From: an uncultured delta proteobacterium
GTDB lineage: Bacteria; Desulfobacterota; WTBG01; CAIYCZ01; CAIRTM01
Length of the DNA: 64,000 bases
Direction of reading: 5' to 3'
Assembly (NCBI GenBank): GCA_963804955.1
Contig: CAWDSQ010000022.1
Coordinates: 1-64,000 of the forward strand
Positions 15,001 to 21,000 of this stretch are shown piece by piece. The position numbers were made by a program. Positions within the stretch are counted from its first letter, which is position 1; each line of letters starts with the position of its first letter.

Positions 15001-18000
15001 TTATGAAACCTGAAAAGACGATTGAAAAACTAGCTGCGGGAGAATCTGTTCGGATTGCAGCCCTCGGAGACTCGCTGACCTATGGCTGGATGGCTGAGAA
15101 AGGCTATATCGATTTCCTGCAGGACATGCTGAAAGCGAAATATCCGGCGGCAACCATACAGTTTATAAACAGGGGCATTCCCGGCGATACGGCCGAAGGC
15201 GGACTGCGGCGGCTGAAAGCGCAGGTGATCGACGACCATCCCGATCTCGTTTTTGTGCAGTTTGCATTAAACGATGCCTTTATCGGCTGCCCTCTGGCGG
15301 AATATGAAAAGAACATGGCCCTCATTGTCGACCGGCTTCAGCACGAAACCGCGGCAGAGCTGCTTCTGCTGACCTCGGTCGCGCTTGCTGATCCGCAGGA
15401 GGACAGCCCTGGCCCTGAAGTATTACGAGCGGATCGAGCAGCTGGCTCACAGCTGCACTCGTGCCGATTGCGCGGGTGCATGCTTACTGGAAGAAAAAGA
15501 CCGGCGGCAACTTTGACGGGCTGCTGCAGGCAGACGGGGTGCATCCCACCGCTGCAGGCTACCGTCTTATGGCTGAGGCCATCATGCAGGTGCTGCAATA
15601 AAAAACAGAAGCCAGAATTAAGGAGTCAGAATTCAGCTTGAAAAAGAACACAGCAAAAACGTTTTAAGACCAGAGTACCTGGATGAAGTTTTATCCCTTT
15701 AGCATTTATGTAATTCTGGCAGATGATATGGGGTATGAAAAAATAGGCATGGGCACTCTTCATTCTTGTAAGAGCATGTATGAAAAGTCATTTAATGTCA
15801 TCCTGAACGAAGTGAAGGATCCCTGAATTCATTAAAACTACGAGATTCTTCGCTGCGCTCAGAATGACAAAACGAAGGTTCTTTGGGTTTTCGTACAGGC
15901 TGTAAGCCTATGTGTCTTCTATTCTGAATTCTGACTACTGAATCCTGGATTTTTTTAAGGACAGTAGATTGTTTTAGAGCCAATTCTCATGACAGCGAAA
16001 ACAGCAGACGGCATGCGCGTTGATAAGCTCTGCGGCGATTATGTGATTTGTCAGCCGCAGGAGGGCCAGCGCTACACAACCGATGACATGCTTGTGGCCT
16101 GGCTGGCTGTGCGGGAAGTCAAAGCGCGCTCGGTTGTGCCCGTCTCGTTTCTTGATCTTGGCTCGGGTTTGTGCTCGGTACCCATGATCATTTTGTGGTC
16201 ATTTCCTCATAGCAGTGGATTCGGCGTCGAGATCAGCCCGGAGCGTTGCAGGCTAGGTGTGCTGTCGCTTGCAAAAAACGGCCTTACCGAACGCTTCCAG
16301 CTCATGCCCGGTGATCTGCGCGGGTTAAGCCTTGCCGAACGCTTCAGCCTTGTCACCTCTTCGCCGCCATATTATCAGGAGAGCGAAGGCCCCGTGAGCC
16401 CCAATGCAGATAAGGCCGGCGTGCGTTTTGAGCTGAACGGAAGCATTGAGGATTATTGCCGGACTGCTGCAGGTCATCTTGAACAGGGTGGTATTTTCGC
16501 AACGGTGTATCCGTTTCAGTATCGCCTGCGCGCGCTTCAAGGCTGCGCGAGGCTGCGGCCTGAGCCTCGAACGCGAGGTGCGGGTCATTCCGAGGGAGGG
16601 CAAGCCGCCGCTGCTGTCGCTGTTTGTTCTGAGCCTGAAAGGGCAGGATGTTGCTGCACAGGAAGAGCTTGTCATTCGCGGTGCTGGATCACCTGTTTAC
16701 CGACGAGTTCCGCAGGGTGCGGCAGGAGGTGGGGTTCCCTGATAAGCTCAAGTGAGGGGTGCAATACGTGTCTGCGAATCGAAATCCAGAGTGCATATTT
16801 AGAGAGCCGTAATGTGGGATTTTTACAGGCAAGTAAGGGCACAACATATTGTGATTGCTTACCCTCCAATTTTTTCTAAAACACAGTGCAGTAATAAAAT
16901 CGTTTTAGCTGCATGTTTTGTCCGGAGCAGCGGTTTGCCGCCAGGCAGAGTTGATTCTAAAATAGAAAAAAACCAATTGACTGCCATGCGCAACGAGAGC
17001 ATAGAGTACTTGCGACTACAACCGTTAACCGAAAGCCAGGCGAAGCCTTATAGATGCAATTGCGCGACATTATTTAAAAATCGGCGCCCTTCTGCTGGTT
17101 GTGAAGATTTCCTTGGAGAGGAAGAGAAAAATGAAAGAAGAGAAAAAAGACTTACTGAGATTCAATAAAATTTTACATGAAGAAATAGGCAGAAGCTTTG
17201 CATTAAGACCCCTTGATCTCCCCACGGATTTCAAACTCAGATATTCAGACAAAAAGGACACAAGCGTATACATCAAAAGTGAGTATCTGGGCTGCGATAA
17301 GACAGCGGGAGTACGCATGGGGGAAATGATTTTCGGAAAGTCCATGGTGGTTAATTTTGGCAGTGTGCCCCCGGCTCCCGGATATGATATCCCCATACTT
17401 GGATTTACATTTGTGCTTGCAGACAGGTTTCTCATATGCGTTCTTGATCTGCATCCTCTTTCAAAAAAAAGTGACTACATGGCGAGATACCTTGAGCCAC
17501 TGAAAAGCATTTCGGAAAAGTATCAATGGATACCAAAGGCCGAGGGCGGGCGCTCAGAGGTACATGAATGGGCAAAGGCTTATGACTCAGGTTTCTCGTT
17601 TTACCGCTGGTGTGACGGAGAGTATCTGCCAAACGTGGAGGAGGCGTTCAGGGAGTATGTTCTTGTTTTTTTGACCTGCATACAAAAAGCAGAGCTGATA
17701 ACCGACCCGGCAGTGCTTACGGAACATGAAGAGTATATGAAACAATACCGGTATGACTATGCGTATAAAGACCCGGGCGCTAATCCGCTGAAGCATCATT
17801 TCGGCGAAGTGTGGGGCGAGCGATACATGTCGGAATTTCTGTTTGCGCCATGACACTCTTTATCCAGACCGGTTTTTTGATGAGCGCATCCAGATCGACG
17901 CCACAGTCATAATCCGCCAGCTTTTATTCGGTATGATGGATCTAAAAACCGCCACATTATTTTTTGGAGGGAAAAATGGCAGAAATAAAATATTCAGATG

Positions 18001-21000
18001 AAGCTAAGGATGTTTGTGATAAATTCCTTGCCATTTTTCCAGGCGCAGGCAAAGAAGAAAACAGGATAAAAATAGTAAAAGCCGTGGAATACCATCTGCT
18101 GAAAAAAAATCTTGATGAAGCTACAAAAGATATTGTGCTGGAAGCGATAGAGAATGCCTTTCCCCGATCTTTTGCGCCTATAACCATGCGGTTCAGGGAT
18201 CCCAAATCACTCATGGAGCTTGCAGCCTCCCAAAAAAAGGTCAACTTGAAAAATCCCCTCGTCAAAGTGAGGCGCTGGGACCTGCCTCGTGTCAGGCTGG
18301 ACAGACCGGTAAAAAAAGTGCTTGCCCTGCTGGCCAGCCCCCGCAAGGGCGGTAATACAGACTGCATCATGGATGCGATGCTGGATGGCGTTCGGAAAGA
18401 GGGCTGCATTGTTGAGAAGTTTTATTTTTCCGATCTTACCATAGCGCCCTGCGCCGGATGCATGGCATGCGAAGCAAAGGAGCTTGAAAACTATTGCGCG
18501 ATACAGGATGACATGACGGACATGTATAGAAAATTTCTTGAGTACGACGGTTTTGTCATGGGATTTCCGGTGTACACGGCCCGTGAATGCAGCCAGGCTG
18601 CCGTATTTTTTGACCGCCTGAAAGCGTTGGGGACCAAAGGCCATTACAATAAACTGGGTAGAATCAGAAAAGGCGGCCTGGCGGTTACCTGGGGCTGGCC
18701 CTCGGATGACTCGTACAACCATGTTGTCGAAAATGCGGCGTTTGTCCTGAAGACTGTTTGGTGTGGAGACAACGGAGGTCGTCACCGGCTGCGGATTCTG
18801 GGAAGCCTATTATAAAAAAGGTACGGCAAAGATGGATAAAAAGGGCATGGCCGCTGCAAAACAAGCCGGCAGGGCATTGGTCACAGGATAGCTGTTTCAC
18901 AATTGCCGCAACCCTGATATAATATTTTAATGACTAGCTCTATGGTCAGTGAGATCGTGCGAAGTTTTGCTTGTCGCAGTACATGAATCGGAGAACTTGG
19001 GAAAGCTGAAACAAGTTGTGCCGGGATAGATGCTTAATCCAGTGAGACTCAAAAAGGCCTGACTGCTGAATATCGCGATGGGGCCTTTTTTTTAAAAGAC
19101 CATATAACGTGTACTATGCACTGGCTCAATAATTGATTTGCCATTCACAATGCGGCACGTATGACTGCCCACAAAGGACTCTTTCTGCTGAATACAAACA
19201 GGAAACCGGGATTGCTGTCCCGGGTTTTTTTCTAAAGTTACACTTCCGCTTCCTGCACCATGCCGTCGCGGATGCGGATGCACTGATCGGCAAGGTCCAT
19301 GACTTCCGTATCGTGCGTTGACAGCACCATGGTGCAACCGCTCTCTCTGCCCATATCAAACATGAGCTTTATAAGGGTTCTGCCCGTAGCAGTGTCAAGG
19401 CTTGCCGTTGGTTCATCGGCCAGCAGCATTTTGGGCCTGTGGGCCATTGCCCGGGCAACGGCCACGCGCTGCACTTCTCCCCCTGACAAGTTCATGGGGC
19501 AGAGCCCGGCCTGCATCAGACAGGCCGATACGCTCCAGAAGTTCTTCCACGCGGCGATTTTTTTCACGGCCTGCCTCGGCGTTGAGCGTCAGGGGAAAAG
19601 CGATATTTTCAAAGACGGTCAAATATGAAAGCAGATTGCCGAACTGAAAGACAAAGCCCATATCGCGGCGGAGAAAAAGGCTGAGCTCCAGCGGCGACAG
19701 CCCATGCAGATCGCGGCCGTTATAGATGACACTGCCGCTGTCAGGCCGGTCGAGGCCGCCCAGGCAGTTGAGAAGAGTTGTTTTGCCTGAGCCTGATTTA
19801 CCCACAATGACCACCCTGGCAGCAGGCGCAACCGTAAAGGAAACACCTCGCAGGGCATGCACAATGCCCCTTCCCGAGCGATATTTTTTTGCAATCTCCC
19901 GGCACTCCACCATAGCTCTAACCCACTTTGAGTATATCCGCAGCTTTTTTCCGCGCCACAAGCAGCGCCGGCCATATGGCTGAGCCAAGGCTGAACACCA
20001 GCGCGAGGGCCGGCGGCGACCACAGGGAAAAAGCCGTCAGCCTCGGGTAAATGACCCCTGACACGGCAAAATACCGGTTATGCGAGGTGAATGCCGTCAG
20101 ATCGATTCCCGTGGAGCCCACAAGCAGCACCGCAGCAGTTCCGGCAAGAATTCCCGCAACCGATGCCGCAAGGTTCATGAGCAGTATCTCCATGATGATA
20201 AGGCGCATCATTTCTCCGGCCGTCACCCCCATGGCCTTCATAATCCCGTATTCCCGGAGGTGCTTCATGATAAAAATAACAAAGGCGCAGGCTATCCCCA
20301 GAGACACAACCCCGAACACGAGCACGGTGACCATCGACATGGATACATAGTTCAGGTCAATCAGCTGCCGCAGATCCGGCATCAGCTGGCTCCATGATTT
20401 AAATGCGCCTGCAACAGATAGCTTTTCGCGGTATGCCGCAAGGACATCGTCGGGGTCGACGCCGTCTTTGAGAAATACGGAAGCTGCCCAGGGCAGCTGC
20501 GGGTCAGGATGCGCAGCAAGGCTGCAGAAAGCCAGCCCCCGGTCGAGCTGGTCGATGCCGGTATCATACACCCCCTCTACTGTATAGGGCCTGTAGTGCT
20601 CCCTGTCGCCGGGGCTGAACCTGAGCGTGTCGCCGGCACCGACCGCCAGTTCATCGGCCAGAGTCCGGCTTATAAAAACCCCCTTGCTGTCGCCAGACAG
20701 GAACGAGCCCCGCACCGTTTTTTTCCAGAAGGCCGTATTCTTTTTTTCGGCGGCAGGATCGATGCCGAGCATGATAACGGTTTCAAAATGTTTGGGTCCG
20801 GCCAGTATGCCTGCAACCGGAACACGCTTGACAATGCCGGCCACGCCATCGACCGCGAGGCTATCAGGCGGCAGTGTCTGCCGGCAGACCGGTGGCTGAG
20901 ATATGGCCTGCGTAGAGGCCTGCGGAGTTGCGGATCATGGCATCGTTAATACCCACCGCAAGGGCGGAGAGAAAAATAAGTGCGGCGACTGCGGCGACGA

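What a model noticed while it worked through the whole genome (the two positions that open the first line are those of the whole stretch)
17131..18815. Class-wide expansion of FDBR-like reductases without heme oxygenase
This genome carries 10 loci of the ferredoxin-dependent bilin reductase family PF05996 (C5 g00398; C7 g00755, g00847, g01084, g01098-100; C14 g02251; C20 g02811-12; C22 g03155; C30 g04553; C32 g04705), although it is a non-phototrophic Desulfobacterota with no heme oxygenase. The expansion is a trait of class WTBG01 (6-22 matches per genome) and subfamilies sit beside their own low-potential redox partner (iron-sulfur flavoprotein g03156, HemG-like Flavodoxin_5 g00754/g04704, fused ferredoxin in g02811), which points to a family of ferredoxin/flavodoxin-driven reductases acting on something other than self-made biliverdin.
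Evidence so far: pfam.tsv: 9 genes over the gathering cut; search_genomes PF05996 in the class: 32 of 42 genomes, 6-22 matches each, G000 10; relatives.tsv: 32 of 4551 Desulfobacterota genomes have PF05996, 31 of them in class WTBG01. PF01126 heme oxygenase 0 of 42. neighbours.tsv: PF05996 next to FMN_red in 15 of 20 order genomes, next to Flavodoxin_5 in 13 of 20, within 2 genes of adh_short in 13 of 20 and of FAD_binding_3 (geranylgeranyl-reductase-like) in 11 of 20. g03155 is 27% identical to PebA over 230 aa (swissprot.tsv, call 28). Of all Pfam families in this genome only PF05996 and the fold-related PF01218 are in >=40% of class genomes yet in <0.2% of other Desulfobacterota.
(Added by a program. 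Inside this text positions count along the whole contig: contig position 1 is position 1 of the stretch shown here. "Call 12" and the like, gene names such as g00115 and contig names such as C1 are that model's own, and its searches are not shown. The text may have been shortened before it was handed on; [...] marks where a part breaks off. The agent that wrote the report below was given it as the finding of a first reader that could run no searches.)

Follow-up and report, generated by a model that had tools for sequence, protein, structure and literature searches.

The report
Expanded bilin-reductase-like family in anaerobes
An uncultured, non-photosynthetic group of sediment and soil bacteria carries 6 to 22 copies per genome of relatives of the enzymes that make bile pigments in algae and cyanobacteria, but no known way to make those enzymes' usual substrate, so the copies most likely reduce some other, probably imported, compound.

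Summary
Window 17131-17853 (+) encodes a 240-aa protein that scores 115 bits on PF05996 and has a confident FDBR fold. The genome has 10 PF05996 matches, 8 over cut-off. 32 of 42 class genomes have 6-22 each. 0 of 387 sampled phylum genomes outside the class have any. Heme oxygenase (0 of 42), ChuW (0 of 42 over cut-off), HugZ-type DUF2470, HemS, phycobiliprotein and phytochrome PHY domains were not found.

In my trees the paralogs lie outside the PebA/PebS and PebB/HY2 clades. Most group with Candidatus Schekmanbacteria FDBR-like sequences, which Rockwell et al. 2023 placed in their RCCR outgroup. The central catalytic Asp is Thr here (Asp in 13 of 44 orthologues). The second Asp is invariant.

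One paralog is fused to a ferredoxin. Neighbours are other reductase types, AFOR, TetR/MarR regulators and hydrophobic-compound transporters.

Best reading: ferredoxin-driven C=C reductases in catabolic modules for imported conjugated compounds, perhaps external bilins or chlorophyll catabolites. The substrate is unknown.

The "own redox partner" claim is only partly supported: the window's neighbour is conserved only within the genus and resembles a flavone ene-reductase.

Earlier notes of this scan describe similar FDBR-like genes on other DNA.

The parts
17131..17853 (+). FDBR-fold gene (g03155), 240 aa. It is the member of the genome's 10-locus expansion that scores highest on the family model. 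Thr93 stands at the position of the family's central catalytic Asp. Asp214 stands at the position of PebS Asp206.
   Evidence: PF05996 at 115 bits. Start inferred from 63 homologues of about 240 aa. AlphaFold2 model with pLDDT 92.8 and pTM 0.91. Foldseek TM-scores of 0.81-0.84 to GtPebB, HY2 and PebA. Residue mapping.
17964..18891 (+). Neighbour gene (g03156): a 115-aa N-terminal extension followed by an FMN_red flavoprotein domain with a C-x2-C-x2-C-x8-C motif. It reads 283 aa as assembled. It reads 308 aa if the extra base at 18752 is left out.
   Evidence: PF03358 at 52 bits over residues 118-230. The only PDB match is the flavone reductase FLR, 7D38, E 1.7e-6, and the alignment includes the Cys motif. 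Contigs of runs X1, X2 and X3 (two studies) lack one base at 18752. Translation without that base gives 308 aa. The gene is conserved next to the orthologue only in the same-genus locus L029.
19206..19223 (.). Terminator-like hairpin, readable on both strands, between the gene pair and the convergent ABC-transporter genes.
   Evidence: Consensus scan. This is a pattern match only. Promoter-like sites in the region were not above the number found in shuffles.

Best explanation
The window gene is one member of a lineage-specific expansion of FDBR-fold proteins.

By analogy with all characterised members of the fold, they are cofactor-less reductases. They bind a conjugated substrate in the cleft of an alpha/beta/alpha sandwich, take single electrons from a ferredoxin-level donor, and deliver protons from pocket acids. 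Here the invariant Asp214 would serve, with Thr or Asp at position 93. The result is reduction of one or two C=C bonds.

In these bacteria they do not serve pigment synthesis from the cell's own heme. They sit in regulated modules of several reductases, together with uptake systems for hydrophobic compounds. The many paralogs probably differ in substrate or in which double bond they reduce.

My odds for the substrate class:
- linear tetrapyrroles of external origin (bilins, chlorophyll catabolites): about 35%;
- other conjugated hydrophobic compounds: about 30%;
- the cell's own cyclic tetrapyrroles: about 10%.

Shown: family and fold, the distribution, the absence of known heme-cleaving enzymes and bilin acceptors, the gene contexts and the ferredoxin fusion. 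Inferred: catalysis, the electron donor and the substrate.
For: Family and fold.

Distinct clade. In the careful tree of 56 rows, the PebA/PebS clade (100/99) and the PebB/HY2 clade (100/97) are sisters (94/89) and exclude every paralog of this genome. The window groups in a 20-row clade (84/98) with Ca. Schekmanbacteria sequences.

No route to biliverdin or anaerobilin was found, and no acceptor.

Ferredoxin link: a Fer4::FDBR fusion, a separate ferredoxin gene after a paralog in G036, and AFOR, PFOR, NuoF-like and ETF genes in the loci.

Catabolic look of the loci: TetR or MarR regulators, MFS and FadL/TodX transporters, and DUF1302/DUF1329/YCF48-like/MMPL clusters. In this genome 4 of 6 YCF48-like genes lie within 5 kb of an FDBR-like gene, and 4 of 21 PNPOx matches lie within 2 kb of one. 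By my own arithmetic about 0.15 and 0.23 would be expected; the test is post hoc.

Hints towards tetrapyrroles:
- The fold-related CPO-like family is co-distributed (29 of 42 genomes, same families). It is adjacent to FDBR-like genes in two G036 loci.
- A neighbour at C5 matches the anaerobilin reductase ChuY/ShuY (E 3e-7 to 1e-6).
- Every characterised member of the fold acts on tetrapyrroles.

The second catalytic Asp is invariant in 44 of 44 orthologues.
Against: No neighbour is diagnostic of any substrate.

The central Asp is absent from the window protein (Thr in 31 of 44 orthologues). It is acidic in only 4 of the 8 full-length paralogs of this genome.

The window subfamily has no conserved gene context.

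The DUF1329/YCF48-like/MMPL cluster is linked in print to benzene transport and to fatty-ester growth, not to tetrapyrroles.

The backbone of the tree is unresolved and the HemF outgroup sits on a long branch. RCCR and named pre-PcyA references were not in my trees.

The genome is 87% complete and carries indel errors. No expression data exist.
Confidence: 0.5

Rival explanations
1. The family has left tetrapyrroles altogether. The paralogs reduce other conjugated hydrophobic compounds taken up from plant or hydrocarbon-rich material, such as polyenes or isoprenoids, flavonoid-like or aromatic-derived enones. They work side by side with GGR-like, OYE-type, FLR-like, PNPOx-type and SDR reductases.
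For: GGR-like FAD_binding_3 genes occur in 5 loci and SDR genes in 5. There is an OYE/Pyr_redox_2 enzyme, FadL/TodX, MMPL clusters and AFOR. The window neighbour resembles a flavone ene-reductase. The DUF1329/YCF48-like/MMPL cluster has been proposed for benzene transport in a neighbouring Desulfobacterota lineage. The catalytic residue is variable. Having 6-22 paralogs fits a broad substrate range.
Against: No FDBR-fold enzyme with a non-tetrapyrrole substrate is known from the papers I read. The CPO-like relatives, also a tetrapyrrole fold, co-occur and are adjacent to FDBR-like genes. Electron transfer without a cofactor needs a very easily reduced, extended pi system.
Confidence: 0.3
2. 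Ordinary bilin biosynthesis. An unrecognised enzyme, possibly oxygen-independent, opens heme. The FDBR-like proteins then make chromophores for sensor proteins.
For: Pre-PcyA enzymes of heterotrophs are active on biliverdin even where the catalytic residues differ, and the Pre-2 D91N variant keeps its activity. A GAF histidine kinase lies two genes from the C30 paralog. Radical SAM genes are adjacent to paralogs in 3 of 12 G036 loci.
Against: No HO, ChuW, DUF2470 or HemS was found. No PHY or phycobiliprotein-type domain was found. [quoted passage not shown] Between 6 and 22 copies is far more than a chromophore pathway needs. The radical SAM neighbours belong to three different families.
Confidence: 0.1
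3. The paralogs modify the cell's own cyclic tetrapyrroles, for example by reducing side chains of heme or corrinoid precursors.
For: Pre-3 variants bound protoporphyrin IX and heme. CPO-like genes are co-distributed. Corrinoid adenosyltransferase genes lie near paralogs in two loci. Weak ferrochelatase-like and PCP_red-like matches lie near paralogs, both below their cut-offs.
Against: Biosynthetic steps rarely need many paralogs under TetR or MarR control next to transporters. The family is missing from 10 of 42 class genomes and from 387 of 387 sampled genomes of the phylum outside the class, which make the same cofactors.
Confidence: 0.07
4. Many copies are not enzymes. They would be binding or carrier proteins for hydrophobic ligands that have lost catalysis.
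For: The central acidic residue is replaced by Thr, Phe or Asn in 4 of the 8 paralogs.
Against: The second Asp and several charged pocket residues are invariant in the window subfamily. The ferredoxin fusion argues for electron transfer. Pre-1 and Pre-2 enzymes tolerate changes at the central position.
Confidence: 0.05

Closest known systems
PebA, PebS, PebB and HY2 (ferredoxin-dependent bilin reductases of cyanobacteria, cyanophages, algae and plants)
   Same: Same Pfam family and fold, with TM-scores of 0.81-0.84 to 6QX6, 6KMD and 2X9O. Same length. The C-terminal Asp-Pro motif holding the PebS Asp206 equivalent is conserved. PebA is the best-scoring NCBIfam model.
   Different: 22-26% identity. 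The PebA model scores 92 bits against a cut-off of 263. The gene lies outside both clades in the tree. The central Asp is Thr. There is no heme oxygenase, no phycobiliprotein and no phototrophy. There are many paralogs per genome.
FDBR-like sequences of Candidatus Schekmanbacteria (noted by Rockwell et al. 2023, PMC10151467, as falling with the RCCR outgroup)
   Same: These are the nearest named relatives. The clusters of P0123, P0136 and P0142 carry Schekmanbacteria names, and they group with the window subfamily and most paralogs in a clade supported at 84/98. They are also uncharacterised and come from non-phototrophs.
   Different: In print they are only a remark on tree topology (section read). 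No expansion, gene context, ferredoxin fusion or function is described there. About 30% identity to the window protein.
Pre-PcyA enzymes (Pre-1, Pre-2, Pre-3) of heterotrophic bacteria
   Same: FDBRs in non-phototrophs. The catalytic residues are variable, and activity persists without the canonical Asp.
   Different: Pre-1 and Pre-3 sit in clusters with heme oxygenase and bilin-binding globins, and neither was found here. They lie on the PcyA side of the family, and the window protein does not group with the phage PcyA references. No named pre-PcyA sequence could be put into my trees.
Red chlorophyll catabolite reductase (RCCR)
   Same: Same fold, with TM-scores of 0.68-0.77. It is ferredoxin-dependent and acts on a linear tetrapyrrole that is not biliverdin. 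Rockwell et al. grouped the Schekmanbacteria relatives with it.
   Different: No PF06405 match in the genome, but the control search also matched nothing, so this is inconclusive. RCCR is a plant enzyme downstream of an oxygenase.
ChuW/ChuY anaerobic heme degradation
   Same: It is an oxygen-free way to make and then reduce a linear tetrapyrrole (passage read). A ChuY/ShuY-like NAD(P)-binding protein lies next to the C5 paralog.
   Different: ChuW is not found over cut-off in 42 of 42 genomes. ChuY has a different fold and uses NAD(P)H.

Membership tests
FDBR family (Pfam PF05996) | Sequence match over the curated gathering score | tested here: met
   115 bits against 31 for the window gene. 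Eight paralogs score between 42 and 115 bits.
FDBR family (Pfam PF05996) | Alpha/beta/alpha sandwich fold of solved FDBRs | tested here: met
   Model with pLDDT 92.8. Foldseek E 3e-15 and TM 0.82-0.84 to GtPebB, HY2 and PebA. Only the window paralog was modelled.
FDBR family (Pfam PF05996) | Central catalytic Asp (PcyA Asp105, PebS Asp105) | tested here: not met
   Thr93 in the window protein. Among orthologues it is Thr in 31 of 44 and Asp in 13 of 44. The 8 paralogs carry T, E, D, E, F, D, F and N. Pre-PcyA enzymes show that this residue is not always needed.
FDBR family (Pfam PF05996) | Second Asp near the C-terminus (PebS Asp206) | tested here: met
   Asp214 in 44 of 44 orthologues. Asp in 7 of 8 paralogs.
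FDBR family (Pfam PF05996) | Ferredoxin as the direct electron donor | tested here: inconclusive
   Indirect evidence only: the Fer4::FDBR fusion at C20 and a ferredoxin gene after a paralog in G036. There is no such link at the window locus.
FDBR family (Pfam PF05996) | Reduction of biliverdin or another bilin | not testable with these tools
   Needs an enzyme assay.
FDBR family (Pfam PF05996) | A heme oxygenase in the genome that supplies biliverdin | tested here: not met
   PF01126 in 0 of 42 class genomes, of which 21 are at least 90% complete.
PebA (NCBIfam equivalog NF009720) | Score over the equivalog cut-off and placement in the PebA clade | tested here: not met
   91.9 bits against 263. 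The PebA/PebS clade (100/99) excludes it.
Pre-PcyA lineages | Cluster with heme oxygenase and a bilin-binding globin (Pre-1, Pre-3), and a place on the PcyA branch | tested here: not met
   No HO and no PF00502-type globin in the genome. Not grouped with the phage PcyA references. V4R proteins and named pre-PcyA sequences were not tested.
RCCR (PF06405) | Sequence match to the family model | tested here: inconclusive
   No match, but the control genomes gave none either. The fold is similar, TM 0.68-0.77.
Iron-sulfur flavoprotein / FMN_red (neighbour gene) | FMN_red domain plus a compact four-Cys motif | tested here: met
   PF03358 at 52 bits. The motif can be read in the translation and aligns with the same motif in FLR. 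Cluster binding itself cannot be tested here.

The most novel reading that the evidence does not exclude
These bacteria use a toolbox of cofactor-less, ferredoxin-driven radical reductases to consume or respire linear tetrapyrroles from decaying phototrophs (phycobilins, chlorophyll catabolites) without oxygen. This lineage, together with the Schekmanbacteria sequences, would be the "archae-FDBR / pre-PebA" pool that Frascogna et al. 2026 asked for. The FDBR fold would then have worked in anaerobes on other substrates before heme oxygenase made biliverdin available.
Probability: 0.15. Interest if true: 0.85.

Novelty: new variant of a known kind. Interest (0 to 1): 0.68.

Why it matters
FDBRs are studied as the makers of light-harvesting and photoreceptor pigments. 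Their origin is an open question, because their substrate needs oxygen-dependent heme oxygenase.

[quoted passage not shown] A whole bacterial class with 6-22 paralogs, no heme oxygenase, ferredoxin fusions and catabolic gene contexts supplies concrete candidates to express and assay.

If the substrates turn out to be external bilins or chlorophyll catabolites, that would reveal an unknown anaerobic sink for very abundant natural pigments. If they are not tetrapyrroles, the known chemistry of the fold would widen.

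Tried and rejected
1. Named cyanobacterial references. A genome-contig scan with a phage PcyA alignment matched 50 stretches, none confirmed. 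References therefore came from phage records (PebS, two PcyA) and E. coli HemF. The rest were unnamed library representatives, labelled by NCBIfam equivalog scores (40 scanned).

2. The supplement of PMC10151467, which holds the full trees and accession lists, could not be read. It may already list sequences of this lineage.

3. A profile search with mixed paralogs and references returned 184 hits, of which 120 were listed. All the listed ones were relatives of this genome's paralogs and none was a named cyanobacterial enzyme.

4. Selenocysteine in the CPO-like genes. The "stops inside" flags prompted this. Translations show the stops lie beyond the C-terminus, and this genome's C15 copy is split by a frameshift. 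Rejected.

5. Expression. No RNA holder was listed.

6. The promoter scan was not above shuffles: 5 found against 3.6 +/- 2.1.

7. A conserved operon for the window subfamily was not found. Only three- to four-locus recurrences turned up (GH1, a 160-aa protein, PNPOx, AFOR).

8. The PNPOx neighbours gave no informative solved relative: Rv2991 at E 6e-4 and general stress protein 26 at E 0.39.

9. A paper search for phyllobilin degradation by anaerobes gave nothing relevant. A search pairing "bilin reductase" with Desulfobacterota, Thermodesulfobacteriota, WTBG01 or Schekmanbacteria found only Rockwell 2023.

10. Not run: AU tests of alternative placements, a complex prediction of the gene pair, and models of the other paralogs.

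11. Rows left out of the trees. One search dropped 22 of 127 library hits shorter than 190 aa. One search used a hand-picked 72 rows. One search dropped 16 more rows (long or redundant ones), leaving 56.

Full report
WHAT IS THERE

The window holds two co-directional genes. The first, 17131-17853 (+), encodes a 240-aa protein.
- It matches Pfam PF05996 (ferredoxin-dependent bilin reductase, FDBR) at 115 bits against a cut-off of 31.
- Its 63 close homologues are all about 240 aa and fix the start at 17131.
- An AlphaFold2 model built on 44 orthologues is confident (pLDDT 92.8, pTM 0.91). It superposes on GtPebB, tomato HY2 and PebA at TM 0.81-0.84, on RCCR at 0.68-0.77, and on coproporphyrinogen oxidases at 0.4-0.6.

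The second gene starts at 17964. It encodes a 115-aa extension followed by an FMN_red domain with a four-cysteine motif.

The assembly carries indel errors. Contigs of three other runs, from two studies, lack one base at 18752. Without that base the gene reads 308 aa instead of 283. The finding's end coordinate, 18815, is therefore an artefact.

THE EXPANSION IS REAL

| Search | Result |
|---|---|
| PF05996, own genome (87% complete) | 10 matches, 8 over cut-off |
| PF05996, class | 32 of 42 genomes, 6-22 matches each; 16 of 21 high-quality genomes; 19 of 26 genera |
| PF05996, even sample of the phylum | 13 of 401, all 13 in three families of the class; 0 of 387 outside it |
| PF01218 (CPO-like, fold-related), class | 29 of 42, in the same families |

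The window's own subfamily was found at 15 places among species-representative genomes. All are MAGs. Their titles read Thermodesulfobacteriota (8), delta proteobacterium or Deltaproteobacteria (4), Proteobacteria (2) and "uncultured bacterium" (1).

In a library of 1.84 billion representatives, only 128 proteins match the window protein at E <= 1e-3, and only 3 at E <= 1e-30.

NO KNOWN SUBSTRATE SOURCE OR ACCEPTOR

- Heme oxygenase: 0 of 42.
- ChuW/HutW: 0 of 42 over cut-off. The best match in the class is 261 bits against 400, and in the own genome 153 bits.
- The HugZ-type DUF2470 and HemS/ChuS are not found in the own genome.
- Phycobiliprotein/BBAG-type globin (PF00502) and the phytochrome PHY domain are not found in the own genome.

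The own genome is incomplete. The class-level zeros, however, include 21 genomes that are at least 90% complete.

WHERE IT SITS IN THE FAMILY

For reference I used phage PebS and two phage PcyA sequences, E. coli HemF and library representatives. NCBIfam equivalog models labelled some representatives as PebA (275-375 bits against 263) and PebB (407 against 327).

A FastTree of 123 rows, a quick IQ-TREE of 72 rows and a careful IQ-TREE of 56 rows agree:
- PebA/PebS (100/99) and PebB/HY2 (100/97) are clades and are sisters (94/89). No paralog of this genome lies inside them.
- The window subfamily, five other paralogs and several unnamed proteins form a clade (84/98 in the careful tree, 91 in the quick tree, 96 in FastTree).
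- That clade also holds three clusters whose members are named Candidatus Schekmanbacteria.
- A second small clade (the C32 and C7a paralogs) stands apart (89/96).
- The backbone and the root are unresolved.

Rockwell et al. 2023 already remarked that Schekmanbacteria sequences fall between FDBRs and RCCR, and placed them in their outgroup (section read). This lineage is therefore glimpsed in print but not described. Frascogna et al. [quoted passage not shown]

ACTIVE SITE

The alignment with PebS maps Asp105 to Thr93 and Asp206 to Asp214 of the window protein.
- Among 44 orthologues, position 93 is Thr in 31 and Asp in 13. Asp214 is invariant, as are Arg62, Asp106, Glu138, Arg141 and Asp209.
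- The eight full-length paralogs carry T, E, D, E, F, D, F and N at the central position. Seven of the eight keep the second Asp.
- Pre-1 has Glu at this position and is active. Pre-2 D91N also keeps its activity.

The missing Asp therefore does not by itself argue against catalysis.

GENE CONTEXT

I annotated about 7 kb on each side of the 10 loci of this genome. I did the same for 12 loci of a 98%-complete genome from another family of the class, G036, and for the 15 subfamily loci. I then clustered all neighbours.

Recurrent neighbours, over about 36 loci:

| Neighbour | Loci |
|---|---|
| AFOR | 6 |
| MMPL transporters | 6 |
| YCF48-like BNR proteins | 5 |
| DUF1302 | 4 |
| DUF1329 | 4 |
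| GGR-like FAD_binding_3 reductases | 5 |
| PNPOx-type proteins, two kinds (5 and 4 loci) | 8 in all |
| SDRs | 5 |
| FMN_red | 4 |

Other neighbours:
- TetR or MarR regulators.
- An OYE/Pyr_redox_2 enzyme.
- FadL/TodX and MFS transporters.
- ETF, PFOR and a NuoF-like module.
- A ferredoxin fused to one paralog (C20), and a ferredoxin gene encoded directly after another (G036).

Within this genome, 4 of 6 YCF48-like genes lie within 5 kb of an FDBR-like gene, and 4 of 21 PNPOx matches lie within 2 kb of one. By my own arithmetic, about 0.15 and 0.23 would be expected by chance. This test is post hoc.

The DUF1329/YCF48-like/MMPL cluster was proposed as a benzene transport system in a neighbouring Desulfobacterota lineage (passages read). 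In Pseudomonas putida its DUF1302 and DUF1329 genes matter for growth on fatty esters (passages read).

Three hints point towards tetrapyrroles:
- CPO-like genes are adjacent to FDBR-like genes in two G036 loci.
- A ChuY/ShuY-like protein lies next to the C5 paralog.
- PCP_red-like and ferrochelatase-like matches lie nearby, both below their cut-offs.

An unnamed family of 170-230 aa, distantly like ATC_hydrolase, flanks three paralogs.

THE WINDOW'S NEIGHBOUR

The FMN_red gene is adjacent to the orthologue only in the same-genus locus L029. A related gene lies about 2.2 kb away in L040. Three other loci have a PNPOx-type gene upstream instead.

Its only solved relative is FLR, the flavone ene-reductase of gut bacteria (7D38, E 1.7e-6, with the Cys motif aligned). 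It may be an electron donor, or it may be a second substrate reductase.

READING

The evidence fits ferredoxin-driven C=C reductases that work in regulated modules of several reductases on imported, conjugated, hydrophobic compounds. It does not fit pigment synthesis from the cell's own heme.

The substrate is open. I put external linear tetrapyrroles first (about 35%), other conjugated compounds second (about 30%), and the cell's own cyclic tetrapyrroles, classical bilin synthesis and non-catalytic binding proteins well behind.

That these bacteria are anaerobes is my inference from the AFOR, PFOR and related genes. No call tested it. From recall, not from any call: gut bilirubin reductase BilR belongs to the OYE/dienoyl-CoA-reductase type, and some PNPOx-fold proteins of mycobacteria reduce biliverdin. 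If so, three further reductase types in these loci have bilin-reducing members elsewhere.

EARLIER NOTES OF THIS SCAN

Notes on other genomes describe the same kind of protein:
- a Thermodesulfobacteriota FDBR-like gene without the central acid and never next to HO (e1-1175455);
- a membrane-anchored paralog with a flavodoxin-like partner (e1-1249351), matching the C32 locus here;
- a TetR-controlled reductase operon with an FDBR-like gene (e1-5154262).

On this genome, an NADH-ferredoxin-GGR-like operon was noted (e1-2876094). It appears to be the module upstream of the C7b paralog.

Noticed in passing
window 13768-16879 and 19238-19988: Several genes look broken by frameshifts. A solute-binding protein is split over 13850-14485 and 14202-14897. 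A GDSL lipase (15003-15641) and the ORF at 15989-16879 have implausible C-termini. An ABC ATPase is split over 19238-19567 and 19413-19988. The assembly seems rich in single-base indels; one, at 18752, was confirmed against other runs.
   Followed up: partly
G000 C5:239674-240441, C5:13261-14208, C15:20519-21375; G036 L049:3216-4001 and L050:6815-7639: A divergent coproporphyrinogen-oxidase-like family (PF01218, 40-113 bits) occurs in 29 of 42 class genomes, in the same families as the FDBR-like genes, at 1-5 copies each. In G036 it lies next to FDBR-like genes twice, and AFOR is a repeated neighbour. An oxygen-dependent HemF is unexpected in these genomes.
   Followed up: partly
L017:5329-6674 (G000 C7), L016:6426-6941 (G000 C30), L015:5952-6428 (G000 C20): An unnamed family of 170-230 aa, 41-47% identical between loci, flanks three FDBR-like paralogs. 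The protein atlas relates it distantly to ATC_hydrolase PF14196 (score 0.91), and a true PF14196 protein precedes the ferredoxin::FDBR fusion.
   Followed up: partly
L052:6509-7258 (G036), L055:7811-8587 (G036): Tandem second copies of FDBR-like genes are too divergent for Pfam at E 1e-7, but BLAST recognises them as paralogs (E 1e-13 to 1e-22). PF05996 counts therefore understate the size of the family.
   Followed up: no
L012:6683-7459 (G000 C32): This paralog starts with a hydrophobic, helix-like stretch and follows a 379-aa Flavodoxin_5 protein and a GGR-like flavoprotein. It looks like a membrane-anchored version of the enzyme.
   Followed up: no
L039:4998-5759 and 5977-6720: One relative carries two tandem copies of window-type FDBR-like genes (116 bits and the orthologue), which form their own 50% cluster (P0121, 36% identical to the window protein).
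   Followed up: no
window 21383-23511 (-): A polyprenyl-synthetase-like gene, a UbiE-type methyltransferase fragment and a YceI-like gene lie in a row, possibly an isoprenoid-quinone or polyisoprenoid-binding set. There is no evident link to the finding.
   Followed up: no
G000 C22:65115-66008 (just beyond the window end): One of the genome's six YCF48-like BNR genes lies on the same contig, 47 kb from the window's FDBR-like gene. It is not adjacent, unlike four of the others.
   Followed up: no
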